Positions 23,885 through 37,122 of a DNA stretch of 64,000 bases are shown piece by piece. How positions within the stretch are numbered: the stretch's first letter is position 1; each line of letters starts with the position of its first letter. The stretch is from the sequence record NC_047979.1. One strand, 5' to 3'. Both the position numbers and the translations under genes were made by a program. The notes beneath the pieces are model-generated. The model was not told the origin of the DNA, made no database searches, and worked only from the letters and a program-made list of their open reading frames with translations. The stretch is from Escherichia phage Gostya9.

Positions 23885-24172
23885 ATGAATAAACAAGAAA
23901 TTATCTCCGCATGTGAAGCCCATAATGAGTTCTACCTTCATTATGAGAAACTACGCCAAAAGGGTACTACATACCTTCAGGGTACTATGGATTTTTCTGA
24001 TAAGTACCTAAGTAAACGTTTTGCTCAGGAGCGTATCCGTCAACCAAAAGATGACGAAATTCTAGTGTTTAGTCGCACTAATGACAGCTTCCGTTTCATT
24101 CCTGTTGCGAAAGTTCGTCGCATTACGAGCCTTCAGTCAGAGTTAGATCGTGCTTCTCCAGTAGGCCGATAA
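23885..24172 (+). CDS. hypothetical protein (95 aa)
   Basis: ATG with GGGAG RBS; followed by the terminator at 24184-24206. Confidence 0.55.
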   Translation: MNKQEIISACEAHNEFYLHYEKLRQKGTTYLQGTMDFSDKYLSKRFAQERIRQPKDDEILVFSRTNDSFRFIPVAKVRRITSLQSELDRASPVGR

Positions 24173-24183
24173 GATAGCAATTA

Positions 24184-24206
24184 AGCCCCTATATGGGGCT
24201 TTTTGT
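24184..24206 (+). terminator. rho-independent terminator
   Basis: Hairpin AGCCCC-TATAT-GGGGCT followed by TTTTT. Confidence 0.65.
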
Positions 24207-24223
24207 GTATTTGAGAAACGTAA

Positions 24224-24532
24224 ATGAGCGATCAGGTAAACCAAAACTATGAAGGACACGTTGATGATCAGTCAATCCTTCTATGGGAAAAAGAAGGGGA
24301 ACAAATAAGATTGACAGTATCTGAATTTCGTGGGAATCTATACATGGGAATTAGGTATTGGCTCCAGGATATTACTGGAGAATGGTTTCCAACGAAATCC
24401 GGCTTCTCTTTTCCGTACACTCTAGAAACTACTTCGCAGCTATTCTATGCTTTTACGCAAATCCTTAGTGAATCTGAGGTTCTTGCCGAAGTACAGAAAC
24501 GAGCTGAAGAACTCAAAGCCAAGAATGCCTAG
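24224..24532 (+). CDS. hypothetical protein (102 aa)
   Basis: ATG-initiated ORF flanked by two terminators. Confidence 0.55.
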   Translation: MSDQVNQNYEGHVDDQSILLWEKEGEQIRLTVSEFRGNLYMGIRYWLQDITGEWFPTKSGFSFPYTLETTSQLFYAFTQILSESEVLAEVQKRAEELKAKNA

Positions 24533-24546
24533 TTCTTGGCTTTTTC
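24518..24546 (+). terminator. rho-independent terminator
   Basis: Hairpin GCCAAGAA-TGCCTAG-TTCTTGGC followed by TTTTT. Confidence 0.65.
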
Positions 24547-24559
24547 TTTATAAATGTAT

Positions 24560-24588
24560 TTGCTTTCAACTCAGTTTTGTTATATAAT
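24560..24588 (+). promoter_or_regulatory. sigma70-type early promoter (TTGCTT-N17-TATAAT)
   Basis: TTGCTT, 17-bp spacer, TATAAT, 30 nt upstream of the ligase N-terminal gene. Confidence 0.55.
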
Positions 24589-24619
24589 ATTTATATAAAT
24601 TAATGAGAGATATAAATAA

Positions 24620-25591
24620 ATGACTAATGTAAAAGAATTTATTAAACGCTGTCAAGAAGCATATTATCAGGGCATGTCTTTAATCTCTGATGAGGAGTAT
24701 GATCGCCTGGTAAAACGCTTCCCGTTAGAGGAAGAGATCGGGCCTAAGGGTGATATTCCACACCTATATCGTATGTATTCTTTACAGAAAGTTTATTATA
24801 ATCGTGGAGATAAACCCCCATTTGACCCGTTAGGTCAAGTAGAAACTGATAAGTTAGATGGTTGTGCGATTTCCCTGCTATATATTAACGGTGAATTTGT
24901 TCAAGCACTAACTCGTGGTAATGGTATTCTGGGAAATGATGTCACAAGCAACGTAAGATTGCTGAACATCCCTAAAAAGATTTCCCAAAAAGTACCTACT
25001 CAAATCACTGGTGAAGTTCTAATTACAAAAGAAGTAGAAAATAAACGTAACTTTGCCTCTGGTGCTATTAACCTCAAAGATAGTGATGATTTCATGCAAC
25101 GTATCGGGGAAGGTGGTTTAATCTTCGTTGCATACGGTATCCAGTGTTCTGCTGAATCTGTAGGTATTACAGAAGCGTATTTAAAAGATATGCTTTGGCT
25201 AGAGAATGAGAACTTCTTAACAGTTGTTAATGTGCGTTCCTTCTTTAAATGGATTCCGACGGACGGTAAAGTTGTTCGTATTAATGACAATAACAAATTC
25301 TTCCGTGAAGGTTGGACTAATAAATTTCCTCGTGGGGCATTCGCTATTAAAGAGGATGAAGAAGGCGAGATTACAACTCTTACTAAAGTTGAATGGCAGG
25401 TAGGGGCTTCTGGTAAAGTAACTCCAGTCGGTTATTTTGAACCAGTAATTATTGATGATGCTACAATTGTTAAAGCGACTCTTAATAATGTTGATTATAT
25501 TAACTCTCTCGATCTAGAGATCGGTTGCCAGATTCGAGTGATTCGTGCTGGTGGTGTAATCCCGTGCATAGTAGAGCGAGTTTATGATTAA
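24620..25591 (+). CDS. ligA: NAD-dependent DNA ligase, N-terminal subunit (adenylation + OB-fold domains)
   Basis: 323 aa with the KxDG adenylation motif (DKLDGCAIS) and an OB-fold segment (EWQVGASGKVTPVGYFEPVIIDDATIVKATLNN); ends before the Zn-finger region. Confidence 0.75.
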   Translation: MTNVKEFIKRCQEAYYQGMSLISDEEYDRLVKRFPLEEEIGPKGDIPHLYRMYSLQKVYYNRGDKPPFDPLGQVETDKLDGCAISLLYINGEFVQALTRGNGILGNDVTSNVRLLNIPKKISQKVPTQITGEVLITKEVENKRNFASGAINLKDSDDFMQRIGEGGLIFVAYGIQCSAESVGITEAYLKDMLWLENENFLTVVNVRSFFKWIPTDGKVVRINDNNKFFREGWTNKFPRGAFAIKEDEEGEITTLTKVEWQVGASGKVTPVGYFEPVIIDDATIVKATLNNVDYINSLDLEIGCQIRVIRAGGVIPCIVERVYD

Positions 25592-25641
25592 TACATAACC
25601 CTTTGCTACCCCTCTACCATATCGGAATTATAAAGTGGTTA

Positions 25642-25670
25642 TTGACATTTTCGCCGCTTAGGTATATACT
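25642..25670 (+). promoter_or_regulatory. sigma70 promoter in the ligase inter-subunit gap (TTGACA-N17-TATACT)
   Basis: TTGACA, 17-bp spacer, TATACT. Confidence 0.45.
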
Positions 25671-25734
25671 ATTATCATTCAGTTGAGGGATAGAAAGTTA
25701 TGGCGAGGGTAAGCAAAGTTAGTTAAAATTGTAG

Positions 25735-25763
25735 TTGCTAAATGCTTAAATACTTGCTATAAT
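25735..25763 (+). promoter_or_regulatory. sigma70-type early promoter (TTGCTA-N17-TATAAT, extended -10 TGcTATAAT)
   Basis: TTGCTA, 17-bp spacer, TATAAT, then ATAAATTGATAAGGAAG box/RBS before the ATG at 25794. Confidence 0.55.
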
Positions 25764-25793
25764 ATTTATATAAATTGATAAGGAAGAAATTTG

Positions 25794-26573
25794 ATGAAAA
25801 TCGAAATTCCAACACAATGTCCCTCTTGTGGTTCTAAGCTAGATCTTGTCAACGGACAATTATTCTGTCGTAATAAGTCCAACTGTCCAGCGCAATCAAG
25901 TAAGTTAATTGAGAACTTCTGTACAAAAATGAAGTTAAAGGGCTTTGGCCCGAAAACTATTGAGAAGCTGGAGCTGACGAAGATTTCAGAACTATTTTAC
26001 CTAACCGAAGAAGATTTGGTTAGAGCCGTGGGTAGCAAGGTTGCCGCTAAGTTAATTAGCGAATTAAATACTAAAGTTCGCGGAGACATTGACTTTGGTT
26101 CAGTTCTCGGTTCTTTAGGAATCCCTCTAATTGGAGAGGTTGCAGCAAAGAAATTATCCCAAAATTGCACTAGCTTCCACGATGTGAAGGCTGACGGCAG
26201 GGCTGGAGAAAACTATAAAGCCTGGCTAAATTCCCCACAAGGCAAGGATGTTATCGAATTACCGTGGAAATTCACAACCGGTATTAAAGGTGCTAAAGCT
26301 GAGGTCAGCATTACTGATGGTCTAGTAGCCCAACCAAATGGAATCACGGTGTGTATTACCGGATCTTTGCAAGATTTTGCAAATAGAACGGATGCAACAA
26401 ACTATCTAGAAGGTCTAGGGTATACTGTTAAAAAATCAGTTACCAAAGACGTTAAATACCTCATCTGTGAGGATGAATCTAAGCGTTCTTCCTCATCTTA
26501 TAAGAAAGCCGAAACGAATGGGATAGAAATCCTGTCGATTAAAGAACTATTGGAGAAAAATAATAATGTCTAA
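25794..26573 (+). CDS. ligB: NAD-dependent DNA ligase, C-terminal subunit (Zn-finger, HhH, BRCT-like)
   Basis: Starts with the four-Cys zinc-finger region (CPSCGSKLDLVNGQLFCRN...C) that follows the OB-fold in bacterial LigA, then HhH-like and C-terminal BRCT-like segments; 259 aa. Confidence 0.7.
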   Translation: MKIEIPTQCPSCGSKLDLVNGQLFCRNKSNCPAQSSKLIENFCTKMKLKGFGPKTIEKLELTKISELFYLTEEDLVRAVGSKVAAKLISELNTKVRGDIDFGSVLGSLGIPLIGEVAAKKLSQNCTSFHDVKADGRAGENYKAWLNSPQGKDVIELPWKFTTGIKGAKAEVSITDGLVAQPNGITVCITGSLQDFANRTDATNYLEGLGYTVKKSVTKDVKYLICEDESKRSSSSYKKAETNGIEILSIKELLEKNNNV

Positions 26574-27333
26574 ACTGAACTGGAACGTAGAAGGTGTAAC
26601 CGAGTCTCTGAAAGCAAAAGCCACTGCTCTGGGTGTTGCTGTAATCTCTCAAGAACAAGTAGCTGCTATCGCTGCTGAACTGGCTGCTGAAACTGGCAAA
26701 GACGTTACCGCTCGCTCTGTTGGCTCTAAGCTGCGTAAAGAAGGTTTCGAAGTACAGAAAGCTAACGAAGTACAGAAATCCCCGTGGACTCCTGAGCAGG
26801 AAGCTGAACTGGTTGATTTCCTGAACTCTCATGCTGGTCAGTATACTTATGCTGAAATCGCTGCTGCTGTAGCTGGTGGTCAATTTGGTGCTAAGCAGGT
26901 ACAGGGTAAGATCCTGAGTCTGGAAATGACCGCTTCTGTTAAACCAACTGAAAAAGCTGCTGCTGTTCGTTCCTTCACTCCTGATGAAGAAACTGATTTT
27001 GTTAATCAGGTTGTTGCTGGTGCTACTATTGAAGCTATTGCTGCTCACTTCGGTCGTAATATCAAGCAGATCCGTGGTAAAGCTCTGAGTCTGCTTCGTG
27101 AAGGTCGTATCGCTGCTATGCCGGTACAGGAAACTTCAAGTGCTAAAACTCGTGAAGATCTGCTAGAAGGTCTGGATCTGGCTAACATGACTGTTGCTGA
27201 GATCGCTGAGAAAACTGGTAAGTCTGAGCGCGGTGTTAAATCTATGCTGTCTCGTCGTGGTCTGGTTGCTAAGGACTATGATGGTGCCGCTAAGCGTGCT
27301 AAACTGGATGCAAAAGCTGCGGCTGCTGAATAA
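26566..27333 (+). CDS. abundant DNA-binding protein candidate with three internal repeats
   Basis: 255 aa; strongly host-optimised codons; three related segments (AAIAAELAAETGK..., YAEIAAAVAGGQFGAKQVQGKILSL, ATIEAIAAHFGRNIKQIRGKALSL) resembling HTH units. Position before helicase/primase/polymerase would fit a D5-like protein. Confidence 0.5.
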   Translation: MSKLNWNVEGVTESLKAKATALGVAVISQEQVAAIAAELAAETGKDVTARSVGSKLRKEGFEVQKANEVQKSPWTPEQEAELVDFLNSHAGQYTYAEIAAAVAGGQFGAKQVQGKILSLEMTASVKPTEKAAAVRSFTPDEETDFVNQVVAGATIEAIAAHFGRNIKQIRGKALSLLREGRIAAMPVQETSSAKTREDLLEGLDLANMTVAEIAEKTGKSERGVKSMLSRRGLVAKDYDGAAKRAKLDAKAAAAE

Positions 27334-34012: not shown

Positions 34013-34502
34013 TTTCAAATTGCCCGTCTATGCGTTACGGGCGTTTGTATCAATTGAGCAAGAAGGTGATTATTCCGTAATTACAACAAGATATAATAAA
34101 TATGTGCTAGATAACAGGAAGTTGCCTGGCACGTTTTCTCAACGTAGGCTTATTCTATTTGAGAAACGGAAAGAATTACCATATAAGCTCTATCCTATTA
34201 GAGGTAGAATATCAATGTTGTCTCAATTAGTTGGGTCAAAGCGTAACCAATTTATAGATTCTGATGGAAATCTTATTAATTGGAAGAAAACAACGTTCTA
34301 CGATGTTGTCACCTCTAAAGTTTTGCATTCAGCTAGAATTTACAATGGAAAATACCAATGCTACGTGGCTAAAGTCCCTTATCCATTTGTATTATCCTAT
34401 GTTCCAGCTTATATAAGCTATATTCTGGTAAATAATAGCCCTGTTATTTATCAAGTCCATCAAGAGGAGCCTGAAATTCCTAGACTTAGAATAAAATTAT
34501 GA
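34005..34502 (+). CDS. hypothetical protein (up to 165 aa; start uncertain)
   Basis: ORF overlapping the polymerase stop and the D10 start; first in-frame ATG is internal (about 34215); a GTG/TTG start is possible. Confidence 0.4.
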   Translation: MLNFKLPVYALRAFVSIEQEGDYSVITTRYNKYVLDNRKLPGTFSQRRLILFEKRKELPYKLYPIRGRISMLSQLVGSKRNQFIDSDGNLINWKKTTFYDVVTSKVLHSARIYNGKYQCYVAKVPYPFVLSYVPAYISYILVNNSPVIYQVHQEEPEIPRLRIKL

Positions 34503-35851
34503 AGGTTGTTATATCTAATAAAGCCTATTTCAAGCCCGATGATGAACTTTGGGATTATTGTAGTAAGCAAACCACTTACCACATAGAGACAATGACTAGT
34601 AAATACCCTATTATGTATAAGAATAGTGGTGTTGTTGCCAAAGAGATTAAGTGGATTCCTATTACGCGTCTGGATTTACTAGATGCTAAAGGAATAAAAT
34701 ACGAATTAGTTGATAAACGCACGTTAGCTCCGGTAGATATACCAAAACCGTCGTTTAAACTGCGTGAAGAAGATCAGCTTCCAATATACGAAGAGTGCGA
34801 TGATACCTGCATTATTAATGGTAAGCCTGGATTTGGTAAAACTATCCTAGCACTTGCACTTGCGTATAAATTTGGCCAGAAAACTTTGGTAATCTGTACG
34901 AATACATCCATTCGTGAAATGTGGGCGGCGGAAGTTCGTAAATGGTTTGGGTTTGAACCGGGCATCATAGGTTCTGGGAAATACAATATCGATCCACCAA
35001 TTGTAGTCAGTAATATTCAAACAGTGAATAAGCATGCGAATAATCTTTCTAAAGTATTCGGTACTGTTATAGTTGATGAAGTTCACCATTGTGTAGCTAC
35101 AACTTTCACTAACTTCCTAGAAATATCATGTGCTCGCTATAAAATTGGACTATCCGGCACACTAAAACGTAAGGATGGCTTGCAAGTTATGTTCAAAGAT
35201 TTCTTTGGATATAAAATCTTTAGTCCTCCAGTTAATAATACTGTTGCTCCTACAATCCACAGGTACTCCGTACCAGTTGAATTGTCTGGAAACCAAAACG
35301 TACCGTGGGCATTACGTGCTAACGATGTGTATAACCATCCTGAATATCGAGGGGCTATTATAAACCTAGCACATTTATATGTGAATATGGGGCATAAAGT
35401 ACTCATTGTAAGTGATAGAACAGAGTTAATCCAAACAGTACTAGAAGCTCTTACGCAGCGGGGTGTCACAACCTATGAAATTATAGGGGCAACCCACTTA
35501 GATGACCGATTAAAAATTCAGGAAGATATAGCAAAAGGTGGGCCTTGTGTACTTGCAGCAGCTCAAAGTATCTTCTCTGAAGGTATTTCCCTTAATGAGC
35601 TATCTTGTTTAATAATGGGAAGCCTCATTAATAATGAATCTCTCATTGAACAGCTTGCAGGCCGTGTTCAACGTATTGTCGATGGTAAACTCGACCCTAT
35701 TGTTGTAGATCTAATTATGAAAGGTGGCACTGGACTAAGACAGGCTTCTGGACGTATGGCAGTATACCGTAACAATGGGTGGAAAACTATTACTATGACT
35801 CCTGAGAAAGCAGTTCAATTAGCCAAAATTGCATTTGGCAACAGCTCATAA
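34499..35851 (+). CDS. D10: SF2 DNA helicase (T5 D10-like)
   Basis: Walker A GKPGFGKT and DExH box VIVDEVHH; 450 aa. Confidence 0.75.
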   Translation: MKVVISNKAYFKPDDELWDYCSKQTTYHIETMTSKYPIMYKNSGVVAKEIKWIPITRLDLLDAKGIKYELVDKRTLAPVDIPKPSFKLREEDQLPIYEECDDTCIINGKPGFGKTILALALAYKFGQKTLVICTNTSIREMWAAEVRKWFGFEPGIIGSGKYNIDPPIVVSNIQTVNKHANNLSKVFGTVIVDEVHHCVATTFTNFLEISCARYKIGLSGTLKRKDGLQVMFKDFFGYKIFSPPVNNTVAPTIHRYSVPVELSGNQNVPWALRANDVYNHPEYRGAIINLAHLYVNMGHKVLIVSDRTELIQTVLEALTQRGVTTYEIIGATHLDDRLKIQEDIAKGGPCVLAAAQSIFSEGISLNELSCLIMGSLINNESLIEQLAGRVQRIVDGKLDPIVVDLIMKGGTGLRQASGRMAVYRNNGWKTITMTPEKAVQLAKIAFGNSS

Positions 35852-35863
35852 ATGATGTATAAT
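35835..35863 (+). promoter_or_regulatory. sigma70-type promoter (TTGGCA-N17-TATAAT)
   Basis: TTGGCA, 17-bp spacer, TATAAT, then CATAAATTTGAGAGAG box; no convincing ORF follows for about 200 nt. Confidence 0.45.
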
Positions 35864-35934
35864 ATATACATAAATTTGAGAGAGAAAGTTTCGGATTGAT
35901 AAGAAAGTCCGAAGCAGAAAAATAAAAATTTTAG

Positions 35935-35964
35935 TTGCTAAATTCTCTTGAAATCTAGTATAAT
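35935..35964 (+). promoter_or_regulatory. sigma70-type promoter (TTGCTA-N18-TATAAT)
   Basis: TTGCTA, 18-bp spacer, TATAAT, then CATAAATTCGAGGAG box. Confidence 0.45.
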
Positions 35965-36071: not shown

Positions 36072-36356
36072 ATGCTTACAGAGCCTGATGCTCACCAATT
36101 ATTGGTCGGTTCCTCATTCATTTTGAATGAATCAACAATAGTTGATAATCCAAATAAATTGTCTAATAGACAACTGGCAGAATATCTAGGAATTTTAAGT
36201 CTACGAAATTATGCCGAATACAAGTTTACAAACGATCCTAGTTTGGACATACAATATGTTCCAGTATGGATACCACGTTTAGTAATCGACACTAACCCAC
36301 TAATCGCAATTAACAAATCGAAATTAATCTTTAAAGAGGAAATAAAATATGGCTAA
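36072..36356 (+). CDS. hypothetical protein (94 aa), uncertain
   Basis: ATG-initiated ORF without a clear RBS; its stop overlaps the start of the next gene. Confidence 0.3.
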   Translation: MLTEPDAHQLLVGSSFILNESTIVDNPNKLSNRQLAEYLGILSLRNYAEYKFTNDPSLDIQYVPVWIPRLVIDTNPLIAINKSKLIFKEEIKYG

Positions 36357-37122
36357 GTCTTGGGGCGAAACTACTGGCGGTTCTAACGATAAAATCGAAT
36401 TCCTGAAGTTCAATAACGGTATCACTCGTGTTCGTATCGTTTCTGGTGTTCTTCCACGTTATGTTTATTGGCTGACTAATAAAGAAGGTGGCGTAGCTCC
36501 TTTCGAATGTCTCCGTTTTAACCGTGACAAAGAGAGCTTTGTTCGTGGTAAAGCTGATCCGGTTCATGAGATGGGCTTCTTTGAGAAAGAGCTGGATAAA
36601 GATGGTAATCGCGTTCCACTGAAACCGAAGAAAAACTATATCGCTTTTGTTATCGACCGTTCTGATAACAAACTGAAAGTAATGGAAGTCAAAGCTACTA
36701 TTCTGAAAGGCATCCAGTCTATCATGAAACAGTTGAATCTGGCAACTCCGTTTGATATTGATATTTCTATCGAGAAAAAAGGCAAAGGTTTCGATACTGA
36801 GTATGATGTACAGCAGATTGCTGCTATGCAGTTCCAGATTAAGCTACAAGATCCTAACAGTGCAGAATCTAAGCAATATGCTGCAGATGTAGATCTGATT
36901 GGTGAAGCTATGTGTGATGAAGATGGCGACATCATTAAGTTCGAGAAAGTTCCTTCTCTGGAACAAACCTATCCGGTTCCTACCTATGAAGAGCAGAAAG
37001 AAGCAATTCAAGCCTTCATGGAAGGTCGTGAGAATAAAGATGATGATGCCAAGTCTGGTAATAGCAATGCTGGTTCCCAGAAAGGTATTGACCAAGAAGC
37101 TGCAAGCGATCTGGACGACTAA
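36349..37122 (+). CDS. putative ssDNA-binding protein (acidic C-terminal tail), D11-position gene
   Basis: 257 aa; strong RBS AAAGAGGAAAT; host-optimised codons; acidic C-terminus ending ...EAASDLDD as in phage SSBs. Function inferred, not demonstrated. Confidence 0.45.
   Translation: MAKSWGETTGGSNDKIEFLKFNNGITRVRIVSGVLPRYVYWLTNKEGGVAPFECLRFNRDKESFVRGKADPVHEMGFFEKELDKDGNRVPLKPKKNYIAFVIDRSDNKLKVMEVKATILKGIQSIMKQLNLATPFDIDISIEKKGKGFDTEYDVQQIAAMQFQIKLQDPNSAESKQYAADVDLIGEAMCDEDGDIIKFEKVPSLEQTYPVPTYEEQKEAIQAFMEGRENKDDDAKSGNSNAGSQKGIDQEAASDLDD

What the first reader, a model, noticed from the sequence alone, without database searches (positions are those of the whole stretch)
24620..26573. NAD-dependent DNA ligase split into two genes with two promoters in the 200-bp gap
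The adenylation + OB-fold half (KxDG motif) and the Zn-finger/HhH/BRCT half are separate ORFs split at the domain boundary. The gap carries a TTGACA-N17-TATACT promoter, a possible 8-codon mini-ORF and a second TTGCTA-N17-TATAAT promoter, so the C-terminal half can be transcribed independently. The gap is too short and too promoter-rich to be a group I intron.
Basis: partly seen in the sequence, partly recalled or inferred. Interest (0 to 1): 0.45.

Follow-up and report, generated by a model that had tools for sequence, protein, structure and literature searches.

The report
Phage T5 two-piece DNA ligase genes
This is the already-described two-gene NAD-dependent DNA ligase of T5-like phages (ligA and ligB), separated by the two annotated T5 early promoters P-K28b and P-K28a; it is real but not new.

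Summary
The window is a T5-like phage, 96.9-97.9% identical to T5 and DT571/2 over this region. ORF 24620-25591 encodes domain Ia, the adenylation domain (K78-L-D-G) and the OB fold. ORF 25794-26573 encodes the Cys4 zinc finger, HhH and BRCT domains. The 202-bp gap holds TTGACA-17-TATACT (25642-25670) and TTGCTA-17-TGcTATAAT (25735-25763).

It is already known. T5 GenBank records annotate ligA/ligB and promoters P-K28b/P-K28a here. [quoted passage not shown] PDB 9HU3/9I5I holds both chains of the Providencia phage PSTCR5 orthologue.

All 70 related loci I fetched carry the split, and 930 phage records carry a ligB-type sequence. The promoter hexamers are nearly invariant across five genera; the 8-codon mini-ORF is not conserved. 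There is no intron, intein or read-through.

Those genes have near-consensus sigma-70 sites inside the linker or 3' half (6 observed, 0.22 expected), including a perfect TTGACA-17-TATAAT encoded in an extended linker. This suggests the split houses the promoter of the downstream ligB-D5-helicase unit.

The parts
24515..24543 (+). Terminator-like hairpin plus T-run, ending the upstream PC4-like gene (T5.115 homologue, 24224-24532)
   Evidence: 12-bp stem followed by TTCTTTAT. AY587007 annotates a putative rho-independent terminator at the same place.
24560..24588 (+). ligA promoter, TTGCTT-17-TATAAT (annotated in T5 as an early promoter, T5P35)
   Evidence: Read from the sequence. Promoter features in AY543070 and AY587007. 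Its -10 and initial transcribed 19-mer is identical to the one in front of ligB.
24620..25591 (+). ligA: ligase subunit A (domain Ia, nucleotidyltransferase, OB fold), 323 aa
   Evidence: Pfam PF01653 and PF03120. 99.4% identical to T5 LigA. E = 1e-103 to PDB 9HU3 chain A.
24851..24862 (+). KLDG adenylation motif (K78 is the predicted AMP-accepting lysine)
   Evidence: Translation. Aligned to KLDG of PDB 9HU3 chain A.
25592..25793 (.). 202-bp intergenic gap between the two ligase genes
   Evidence: One nucleotide different from T5.
25642..25670 (+). Promoter P-K28b (T5P36): TTGACA-17-TATACT
   Evidence: T5 annotation. TTGAC and TATA.T are invariant across 5 genera.
25700..25726 (+). 8-codon mini-ORF (MARVSKVS*), probably not functional
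   Evidence: Sequence. Start codon not conserved outside the closest relatives.
25735..25763 (+). Promoter P-K28a (T5P37): TTGCTA-17-TATAAT with an extended -10 TG at 25755-25756
   Evidence: T5 annotation. TTGC and TTGnTATAnT are invariant across 5 genera.
25780..25786 (+). Shine-Dalgarno sequence AAGGAAG of ligB, 7 nt before the ATG at 25794
   Evidence: Sequence. The AGGAA core is kept in most of the aligned relatives; G207, A208 and A209 are invariant.
25794..26573 (+). ligB: ligase subunit B (Cys4 zinc finger C9/C12/C25/C31, HhH, BRCT), 259 aa
   Evidence: Pfam BRCT and HhH. 98% identical to T5 LigB. E = 1.3e-79 to PDB 9HU3 chain B.
26566..27333 (+). D5 gene (DNA-binding protein). It overlaps the ligB stop by 8 nt, so it lies in the same transcription unit as ligB
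   Evidence: T5 annotation T5.118.

Best explanation
These are ligA and ligB of a T5-like phage (Tequintavirus). [quoted passage not shown] Subunit B (Zn finger-HhH-BRCT) supplies the DNA-binding half. The two associate non-covalently on nicked DNA to do what single-chain bacterial LigA does. This step is inferred from LigA biochemistry and from the deposited two-chain structure of the orthologue.

The break lies in the short, variable OB/Zn linker, so no folded element is lost. The gap is a transcription-unit boundary. ligA is driven by its own early promoter. The tandem sigma-70 promoters P-K28b and P-K28a start the ligB-D5-D6 (DnaB-like helicase) unit.

Inferred origin: a strong promoter for the downstream replication genes came to lie in the ligase linker region. 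The gene then separated into two cistrons around it, which was tolerated because the two halves still assemble.
For: Identity and annotation
- 96.9-97.9% nucleotide identity to T5, DT57C and DT571/2, where the genes are annotated as NAD-dependent DNA ligase subunits A and B, with promoters P-K28b/P-K28a in the gap.
- Domain content is confirmed by Pfam.
- The split point maps between E. coli LigA residues ~393 and ~400. In an alignment with 10 unsplit relatives it falls in the variable linker.

Two polypeptides
- PDB 9HU3/9I5I contain both chains ('DNA ligase (NAD(+))', 339 aa, and 'DNA ligase subunit B', 248 aa). Chain B is 100% identical to Providencia phage PSTCR5.
- In a full-length LigA-type enzyme, an N-terminal Ia-NTase-OB fragment alone forms the enzyme-adenylate. 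That experiment was explicitly motivated by the T5 split ligase (PMC1684257).

Conservation
- 930 phage records carry a ligB-type sequence.
- All 70 fetched loci have ligA followed by ligB as separate ORFs on the same strand.
- The 120 closest LigB homologues are mostly 247-263 aa; the few shorter ones are truncated or partial calls, and none is a fused ligase.

Promoters
- 2 strong sites in the gap against 0.0085 expected.
- Hexamers are invariant across 5 genera (Fisher p = 6e-9).
- The promoters stay at a fixed distance from ligB even when extra genes sit in the gap.

Origin inference
- Unsplit 555-578-aa ligases occupy the same PC4-like / ligase / D5-like / DnaB / primase gene order.
- Those genes carry 6 near-consensus promoter sites in the linker or 3' half against 0.22 expected (0 of 300 shuffles), and none in the 5' half.
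- One of them is a perfect TTGACA-17-TATAAT encoded in an extended linker.
Against: - No ligation assay or transcription-start mapping of this phage's genes could be consulted here. I found no paper describing 9HU3, so heterodimer activity rests on the PDB record plus inference.
- The direction of evolution (fission or fusion) is not resolved. The neighbour-joining tree of the C-terminal halves is star-like, with fused forms scattered through it.
- The promoter sites inside fused genes are consensus matches in metagenomic contigs, not tested promoters.
- Tandem strong promoters about 100 bp apart also occur elsewhere in the window (35835-35964). The arrangement is therefore a general T5 early-region habit, not something specific to the ligase.
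Confidence: 0.9

Rival explanations
1. The ligase is a broken, decaying gene (pseudogene) in this phage, and host LigA does the work.
For: A gene interrupted by stop codons and a frame change looks like a pseudogene when seen alone. E. coli has its own LigA (general knowledge).
Against: - The same two-ORF arrangement is kept in all 70 fetched loci, down to 35-39% protein identity.
- Catalytic and zinc-binding residues are intact.
- Each ORF has its own Shine-Dalgarno sequence and start codon.
- The orthologous pair was expressed and solved as a two-chain structure.
Confidence: 0.02
2. A single full-length ligase is made by RNA splicing (group I intron), protein splicing (split intein) or translational bypass of the gap.
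For: Phage genes interrupted by introns, inteins and a 50-nt bypass (T4 gene 60) exist (general knowledge).
Against: - No Rfam family matches the gap, even at E <= 1.
- The gap has 7 stops in the ligA frame and ligB is in another frame.
- In relatives the gap varies from 53 to 1374 bp and can hold whole protein genes.
- The halves end and begin exactly at the LigA linker, with no extra intein-sized sequence.
- The PDB holds separate A and B chains.
Confidence: 0.02
3. The split was created by insertion of a mobile element (a free-standing homing endonuclease gene), as in other phage 'genes in pieces'. On this view the promoters are secondary.
For: GIY-YIG endonuclease genes sit in the ligA-ligB gap in two unrelated loci: L036 (218 aa, PF01541 E 1.1e-5) and L063 (303 aa, GIY-YIG plus a NUMOD-like domain). 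Other cargo (a NADAR gene, small ORFs) also lands there.
Against: - Endonuclease genes are sporadic: 2 of 70 loci.
- They always lie upstream of an intact promoter module.
- The shortest gaps (53-107 bp) contain only a promoter.
- Unsplit relatives already carry promoter-like sites in the linker. This fits promoter-first and cargo-later better.
Confidence: 0.12
4. LigB has a function independent of LigA (for example a BRCT/HhH DNA-binding or recruitment factor made in excess from its own strong promoters), and the ligase is only one of its roles.
For: ligB has two strong dedicated promoters, is co-transcribed with D5 rather than with ligA, and can be transcribed independently of ligA.
Against: ligB was never found without ligA immediately upstream in the 70 loci. 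Its domain set is exactly the missing part of LigA. It was deposited as 'DNA ligase subunit B' together with chain A. No data here bear on stoichiometry.
Confidence: 0.08

Closest known systems
Bacteriophage T5 ligA (T5.116) / ligB (T5.117), NAD-dependent DNA ligase subunits A and B (GenBank AY543070; dnlj1/dnlj2 in AY587007)
   Same: 99.4% and 98.1% protein identity. Same 202-bp gap with one nucleotide difference. Same flanking genes (PC4-like T5.115 upstream, D5 and D6 downstream).
   Different: Nothing of substance; this is an allele of the same locus. The closest relatives DT571/2 and SP15 have an extra small ORF between the promoter and ligA, which this window lacks.
Two-chain NAD+ ligase of Providencia phage PSTCR5 (Priunavirus), PDB 9HU3 / 9I5I
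   Same: Orthologous subunits (E = 1e-103 and 1.3e-79; about 52-55% identity). Same split point. A 192-bp gap with the same two promoters.
   Different: Different genus. Subunit B lacks about 10 residues before the BRCT domain. The PSTCR5 locus also has a short ORF in the inter-promoter leader, at a different position from the window's mini-ORF; I read this off the aligned sequences by eye and did not check it with a tool.
T5 early promoters P-K28b and P-K28a (as labelled in AY543070). From memory, these belong to the set of strong T5 promoters characterised in H. Bujard's laboratory in the 1980s; I could not retrieve that paper here.
   Same: The window promoter hexamers and spacers are identical to the T5 sequence; the only gap difference is at 25612.
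   Different: None.
Single-chain bacterial LigA (E. coli LigA, PDB 2OWO)
   Same: Same domain order Ia-NTase-OB-Zn-HhH-BRCT, with the KxDG motif and Cys4 zinc finger.
   Different: One 671-aa polypeptide against 323 + 259 aa. The phage enzyme is more compact, with a shorter NTase region and shorter linkers.
Unsplit compact (555-578 aa) ligases of distant T5-like phages from metagenomes (P0150, P0173, P0203, P0207, P0225, P0226, P0228, P0233, P0237, P0247)
   Same: 32-40% identity to both halves. Same gene order: PC4-like, ligase, D5-like, DnaB, primase.
   Different: One ORF. Promoter-like sites, where present, are embedded in the coding sequence of the linker or 3' half.
Other phage 'genes in pieces' (T4 topoisomerase genes 39/60; Aeromonas phage Aeh1 nrdA split by mobE). 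Recalled from memory, not tested here.
   Same: An essential enzyme encoded by two adjacent genes whose products reassemble.
   Different: Those splits are attributed to mobile endonuclease insertions. Here the constant occupant of the gap is a promoter module, and endonuclease genes are only occasional.

Membership tests
NAD+-dependent DNA ligase (LigA family) | Nucleotidyltransferase domain with the KxDG adenylation motif | tested here: met
   PF01653 E = 2.2e-23. K78-L-D-G in the translation, aligned to KLDG of 9HU3_A.
NAD+-dependent DNA ligase (LigA family) | N-terminal domain Ia that confers NAD+ specificity | tested here: inconclusive
   Residues 4-70 align to the N-terminus of the chain deposited as 'DNA ligase (NAD(+))'. 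The motif YYxG...SDxEYD is present and shared with the fused relatives.
NAD+-dependent DNA ligase (LigA family) | OB-fold domain following the NTase domain | tested here: met
   PF03120 E = 4e-22, residues 252-321. Aligns to E. coli LigA 284-390.
NAD+-dependent DNA ligase (LigA family) | Cys4 zinc finger, HhH domain and BRCT domain | tested here: met
   C9, C12, C25 and C31 are invariant in 13 LigB sequences. HhH_2 and BRCT Pfam hits. Aligns to T. filiformis ligase (1DGS) 400-653 and to 2OWO 402-529. These domains lie on the second polypeptide.
NAD+-dependent DNA ligase (LigA family) | Nick-sealing activity with NAD+ | not testable with these tools
   Needs a biochemical assay of the two co-expressed polypeptides.
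Two-subunit ligase of T5-like phages (Demerecviridae ligA/ligB) | Two separate ORFs broken at the OB/Zn linker, same strand, ligA first | tested here: met
   The same arrangement is seen in all 70 fetched loci.
Two-subunit ligase of T5-like phages (Demerecviridae ligA/ligB) | Near-identity and synteny with T5.116/T5.117 (PC4-like gene upstream; D5 and DnaB-like D6 downstream) | tested here: met
T5 early promoters P-K28b / P-K28a | Same sequence at the same position as the annotated T5 promoters | tested here: met
T5 early promoters P-K28b / P-K28a | Transcription initiation by E. coli sigma-70 RNA polymerase | not testable with these tools
   Rests on the GenBank feature labels and the older literature, which I could not retrieve.
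Group I / group II intron | Conserved intron RNA structure between two exons that join in frame | tested here: not met
   No Rfam match in 24000-27000 apart from an unrelated weak hit at 24174, upstream of ligA. The gap holds promoters, and in relatives it holds protein genes.
Split intein | Intein N- and C-fragments appended to the two halves | tested here: not met
   LigA ends 2-5 residues short of, and LigB starts within, the normal linker of unsplit relatives. There is no extra sequence.

The most novel reading that the evidence does not exclude
The ligase gene was divided by, or for, a promoter. On this reading, selection for a strong sigma-70 start site for the D5-helicase-primase-polymerase genes placed a promoter in the DNA encoding the flexible OB/Zn linker. 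The gene then separated into two cistrons around it.

Living stages of the series would be:
1. unsplit genes with a perfect consensus promoter encoded in an extended linker (L073);
2. splits whose 53-107-bp gap is nothing but one promoter;
3. the T5-type double-promoter gap;
4. gaps that later acquired cargo genes.

This would be a documented case of gene fission driven by embedding of a regulatory element rather than by a mobile element.
Probability: 0.35. Interest if true: 0.45.

Novelty: already known. Interest (0 to 1): 0.15.

Why it matters
For this window, little: the locus is an allele of T5 ligA/ligB with the annotated P-K28b/P-K28a promoters, and an orthologous two-chain enzyme already has a deposited structure.

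The wider comparison is of modest interest. It shows that the split is ancient and universal in the fetched relatives. The constant occupant of the gap is a promoter module locked to ligB. Unsplit relatives in the same gene order carry promoter-like sites inside the linker or 3' half. That offers a concrete, testable account of how an essential multidomain enzyme came to be encoded in two pieces. It also points to natural split points for engineering LigA-type ligases.

Tried and rejected
- **Paper behind PDB 9HU3/9I5I.** Literature searches found nothing relevant in the held library. One search failed on a term that was too short.
- **Rfam scan of 24000-27000 at E <= 1.** Only an irrelevant weak hit at 24174, upstream of ligA.
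- **Conserved RNA structure in the P-K28b leader.** The window's leader folds with z = -3.8. The fold is not shared by other genera.
- **Hairpin overlapping the -35 of P-K28a.** It is significant in some genera but not in the window or T5: a 6-bp stem, matched or beaten by 314 of 500 shuffles. I do not claim it for this window.
- **Mini-ORF.** Rejected as a conserved feature.
- **Exact 19-nt repeat shared by the ligA and ligB promoters.** It is real, but it is the annotated 'repeat b' of T5 and is not conserved across genera. It is therefore not evidence for ligase-specific co-regulation.
- **Neighbour-joining tree of 125 C-terminal halves.** Too star-like to tell whether fission or fusion came first.
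- **E. coli LigA in the junction alignment.** The tool-based mapping to 2OWO is.
Full report
**What is in the sequence**

Two ORFs lie on the + strand.
- ORF 24620-25591 (323 aa) matches the NAD-dependent ligase adenylation domain (PF01653, E = 2.2e-23) and the ligase OB fold (PF03120, E = 4e-22).
- ORF 25794-26573 (259 aa from the ATG; a TTG one codon upstream is also open) matches BRCT (E = 1.6e-8) and helix-hairpin-helix motifs. It begins with a Cys4 zinc-finger sequence.
- The adenylation motif KLDG is at residues 78-81 of the first ORF.

Against E. coli LigA (PDB 2OWO), residues 214-320 of the first ORF align to 284-390. Residues 3-122 of the second align to 402-529.

The 202-bp gap is 32% GC. 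It has seven stop codons in the ligA reading frame, and ligB is in another frame.

**The promoters**

The scan finds TTGACA-17-TATACT at 25642-25670 (11/12). It also finds TTGCTA-17-TATAAT at 25735-25763 (10/12, with an extended -10 TG).

Loose promoter-like matches are not enriched in this AT-rich region (4 found, 6.3 expected). Two sites of this quality in 202 bp are not chance: mean 0.0085 in 2000 dinucleotide shuffles, none reaching 2.

No terminator-like site follows ligA, so read-through from the ligA promoter (TTGCTT-17-TATAAT, 24560-24588) into ligB is also possible.

**What it is**

The region is 96.9-97.9% identical to phages T5, DT57C and DT571/2, and 515 phage records match it.
[quoted passage not shown] In the gap it annotates 'promoter P-K 28b' and 'promoter P-K 28a'.
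- AY587007 calls the genes dnlj1 and dnlj2, and the promoters T5P36 and T5P37.
- The window's gap differs from T5 at one nucleotide. The proteins are 99.4% and 98.1% identical.
[quoted passage not shown] It also shows that a C-terminally truncated LigA-type enzyme (Ia-NTase-OB only) still forms the enzyme-adenylate (PMC1684257).
- PDB entries 9HU3 and 9I5I contain both chains of an orthologue (E = 1e-103 and 1.3e-79). Chain B is 100% identical to Providencia phage PSTCR5.

The finding is therefore correct but already known.

**How general the split is**

- A tblastn search with the PDB chain B found 930 phage records, from hosts including Escherichia, Salmonella, Klebsiella, Vibrio, Proteus, Providencia, Aeromonas and Serratia.
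- The 120 closest LigB homologues in the large protein collection are mostly 247-263 aa; the few shorter ones are truncated or partial calls, and none is a fused ligase.
- In 70 loci from annotated phages and IMG/VR, down to 35-39% identity, ligA is always followed on the same strand by a separate ligB. The gap ranges from 53 to 1374 bp.

This excludes a pseudogene. Together with the lack of any Rfam match, the absence of intein-sized extra sequence and the separate PDB chains, it also excludes splicing or bypass.

**What is conserved in the gap**

Six phages from five genera were aligned. Both promoters are conserved while the rest of the gap drifts: 19 of 24 hexamer columns are invariant against 34 of 182 others (Fisher p = 6e-9).

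The 8-codon mini-ORF (25700-25726) loses its ATG in four of the six.

The double-promoter module keeps a fixed distance from ligB. The -10 elements end about 116-128 nt and 25-35 nt before the start codon. This holds even where extra genes lie between ligA and the module:
- GIY-YIG endonucleases in L036 and L063;
- a NADAR-domain gene in L070;
- one to three small ORFs in Vibrio phages.

Distant environmental relatives with 53-107-bp gaps have essentially one promoter and nothing else.

ligB overlaps the D5 start by 8 nt. The promoters therefore head a ligB-D5-D6 unit, of which ligB is merely the first cistron.

**Unsplit relatives**

An exhaustive HMMER search of 1.84 billion representative proteins found well over 100 clusters of stand-alone LigB proteins of about 250 aa. 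Interspersed with them were ten compact one-piece ligases of 555-578 aa at 33-41% identity.

Their contigs show the T5 gene order: PC4-like protein, ligase, D5 homologue, DnaB-type helicase, primase, PolA. Several also have a T5 A2-family gene.

Aligning them to the concatenated window halves puts the T5 break inside the variable linker, between the 'RAGxxIP' strand and the 'CPxCG' zinc knuckle.

In these ten genes, near-consensus sigma-70 sites (at least 11 of 13, counting the TG) occur as follows:

| Region | Observed | Expected from shuffles |
|---|---|---|
| Sense strand, linker plus 3' half | 6 | 0.22 (0 of 300 shuffles reach 6) |
| Sense strand, 5' half | 0 | 0.29 |
| Antisense strand, whole gene | 1 | not computed |

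- In L073 a perfect TTGACA-17-TATAAT (1708-1736) is encoded within an unusually long linker...GVDNLSSDEYNNN....
- In L077/L078, TTGAAT-18-TGcTATAAT lies in the linker.
- Two of the six sites (L076, L080) are in sister sequences, so they are not independent.

**Interpretation**

Shown:
- the domain split;
- the identity with T5 ligA/ligB;
- the promoter sequences and their conservation;
- the family-wide persistence of the split;
- the existence of unsplit syntenic relatives.

Inferred from LigA biochemistry and the deposited two-chain structure: subunit A carries out NAD+-dependent adenylation and catalysis, and subunit B provides DNA binding in a non-covalent complex.

Inferred from the comparison: this position in the replication module is where a transcription unit starts, and the ligase gene was partitioned around that promoter. 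The graded series is:
1. fused;
2. fused with a linker promoter;
3. minimal one-promoter gap;
4. double-promoter gap;
5. gap with cargo genes.

This series is suggestive. Its direction is not established, because the neighbour-joining tree is unresolved.

**Things that did not hold up**

- A hairpin overlapping the -35 of P-K28a is significant in several genera (Eos, L039, L069, Thalassa) but not in the window or T5.
- The window-specific fold of the P-K28b leader (z = -3.8) is not shared elsewhere.
- The exact 19-nt -10/leader repeat in front of both ligA and ligB is the annotated T5 'repeat b'. It is genus-specific.
- Tandem promoters about 100 bp apart also occur at 35835-35964.

**Verdict**

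Novelty: already known. Interest is low for the locus itself. The promoter-in-the-linker reading is a modest, testable addition.

Noticed in passing
L073 1708-1736 (metagenomic contig logan:SRR17165187_794583; protein P0203): A perfect consensus sigma-70 promoter (TTGACA-17-TATAAT) is encoded inside the extended OB/Zn linker (GVDNLSSDEYNNN) of an unsplit T5-type ligase gene. L077 4952-4981 has a similar site (TTGAAT-18-TGcTATAAT) in its linker. Over ten unsplit genes there are 6 such sites in the linker or 3' half against 0.22 expected.
   Followed up: yes
L036 2184-2840 and L063 1766-2677 (IMG/VR T5-like contigs): GIY-YIG homing-endonuclease genes (218 aa; 303 aa with a NUMOD-like domain) sit in the ligA-ligB gap, upstream of the intact promoter module. 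The gap is a landing site for mobile genes.
   Followed up: partly
L070 2177-2809: A NADAR-domain protein (PF08719, E = 1.7e-31), from a family linked to NAD/ADP-ribose metabolism, is inserted between the two halves of the NAD-dependent ligase in one phage lineage. The sister locus L069 has only a 60-aa ORF there.
   Followed up: no
Between P-K28b and P-K28a in relatives: L010 ~1910-1950, L039 ~2910-2950, L069 ~2915-2950, L008 ~1905-1960: An inverted repeat of 9-12 bp whose 3' arm overlaps the -35 (or the spacer) of the ligB-proximal promoter. The arm sequences differ between genera. It is individually significant in several genera (2-11 of 500 shuffles) but weak in the window and T5 (TAAGCA/TGCTTA, 25710-25748). 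It could be an RNA hairpin in the P-K28b transcript or an operator.
   Followed up: partly
window 24583-24601 and 25758-25776: An exact 19-nt repeat, TATAATATTTATATAAATT (-10 plus initial transcribed region), occurs only in front of ligA and in front of ligB in the 64-kb window. Six other early promoters match with 2-3 mismatches. It corresponds to 'repeat b' copies 4 and 5 of T5 record AY587007.
   Followed up: yes
window 35835-35964: A second tandem pair of strong promoter-like sites about 100 bp apart (TTGGCA-17-TATAAT and TTGCTA-18-TATAAT), with duplicated -10/leader sequences, in the gap between ORFs 34499-35851 and 36349-37122. The double-promoter design recurs in the early region.
   Followed up: partly
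L003 719-919 (DT571/2) and L004 719-991 (SP15), compared with window 24590-24620: The closest relatives carry an extra small ORF (66 or 90 aa) between the ligA promoter and ligA. It is absent from this window and from T5.
   Followed up: no
window 26566-26573: The ligB stop codon overlaps the D5 start (ATGTCTAA, an 8-nt overlap). This suggests translational coupling of ligB and D5.
   Followed up: no
Proteins P0251, P0256, P0266, P0268, P0241: A few 269-331-aa LigB-like proteins group with long bacterial-type LigA sequences rather than with the phage clade in the neighbour-joining tree. They could be fragments or independent splits of bacterial-type ligases.
   Followed up: no
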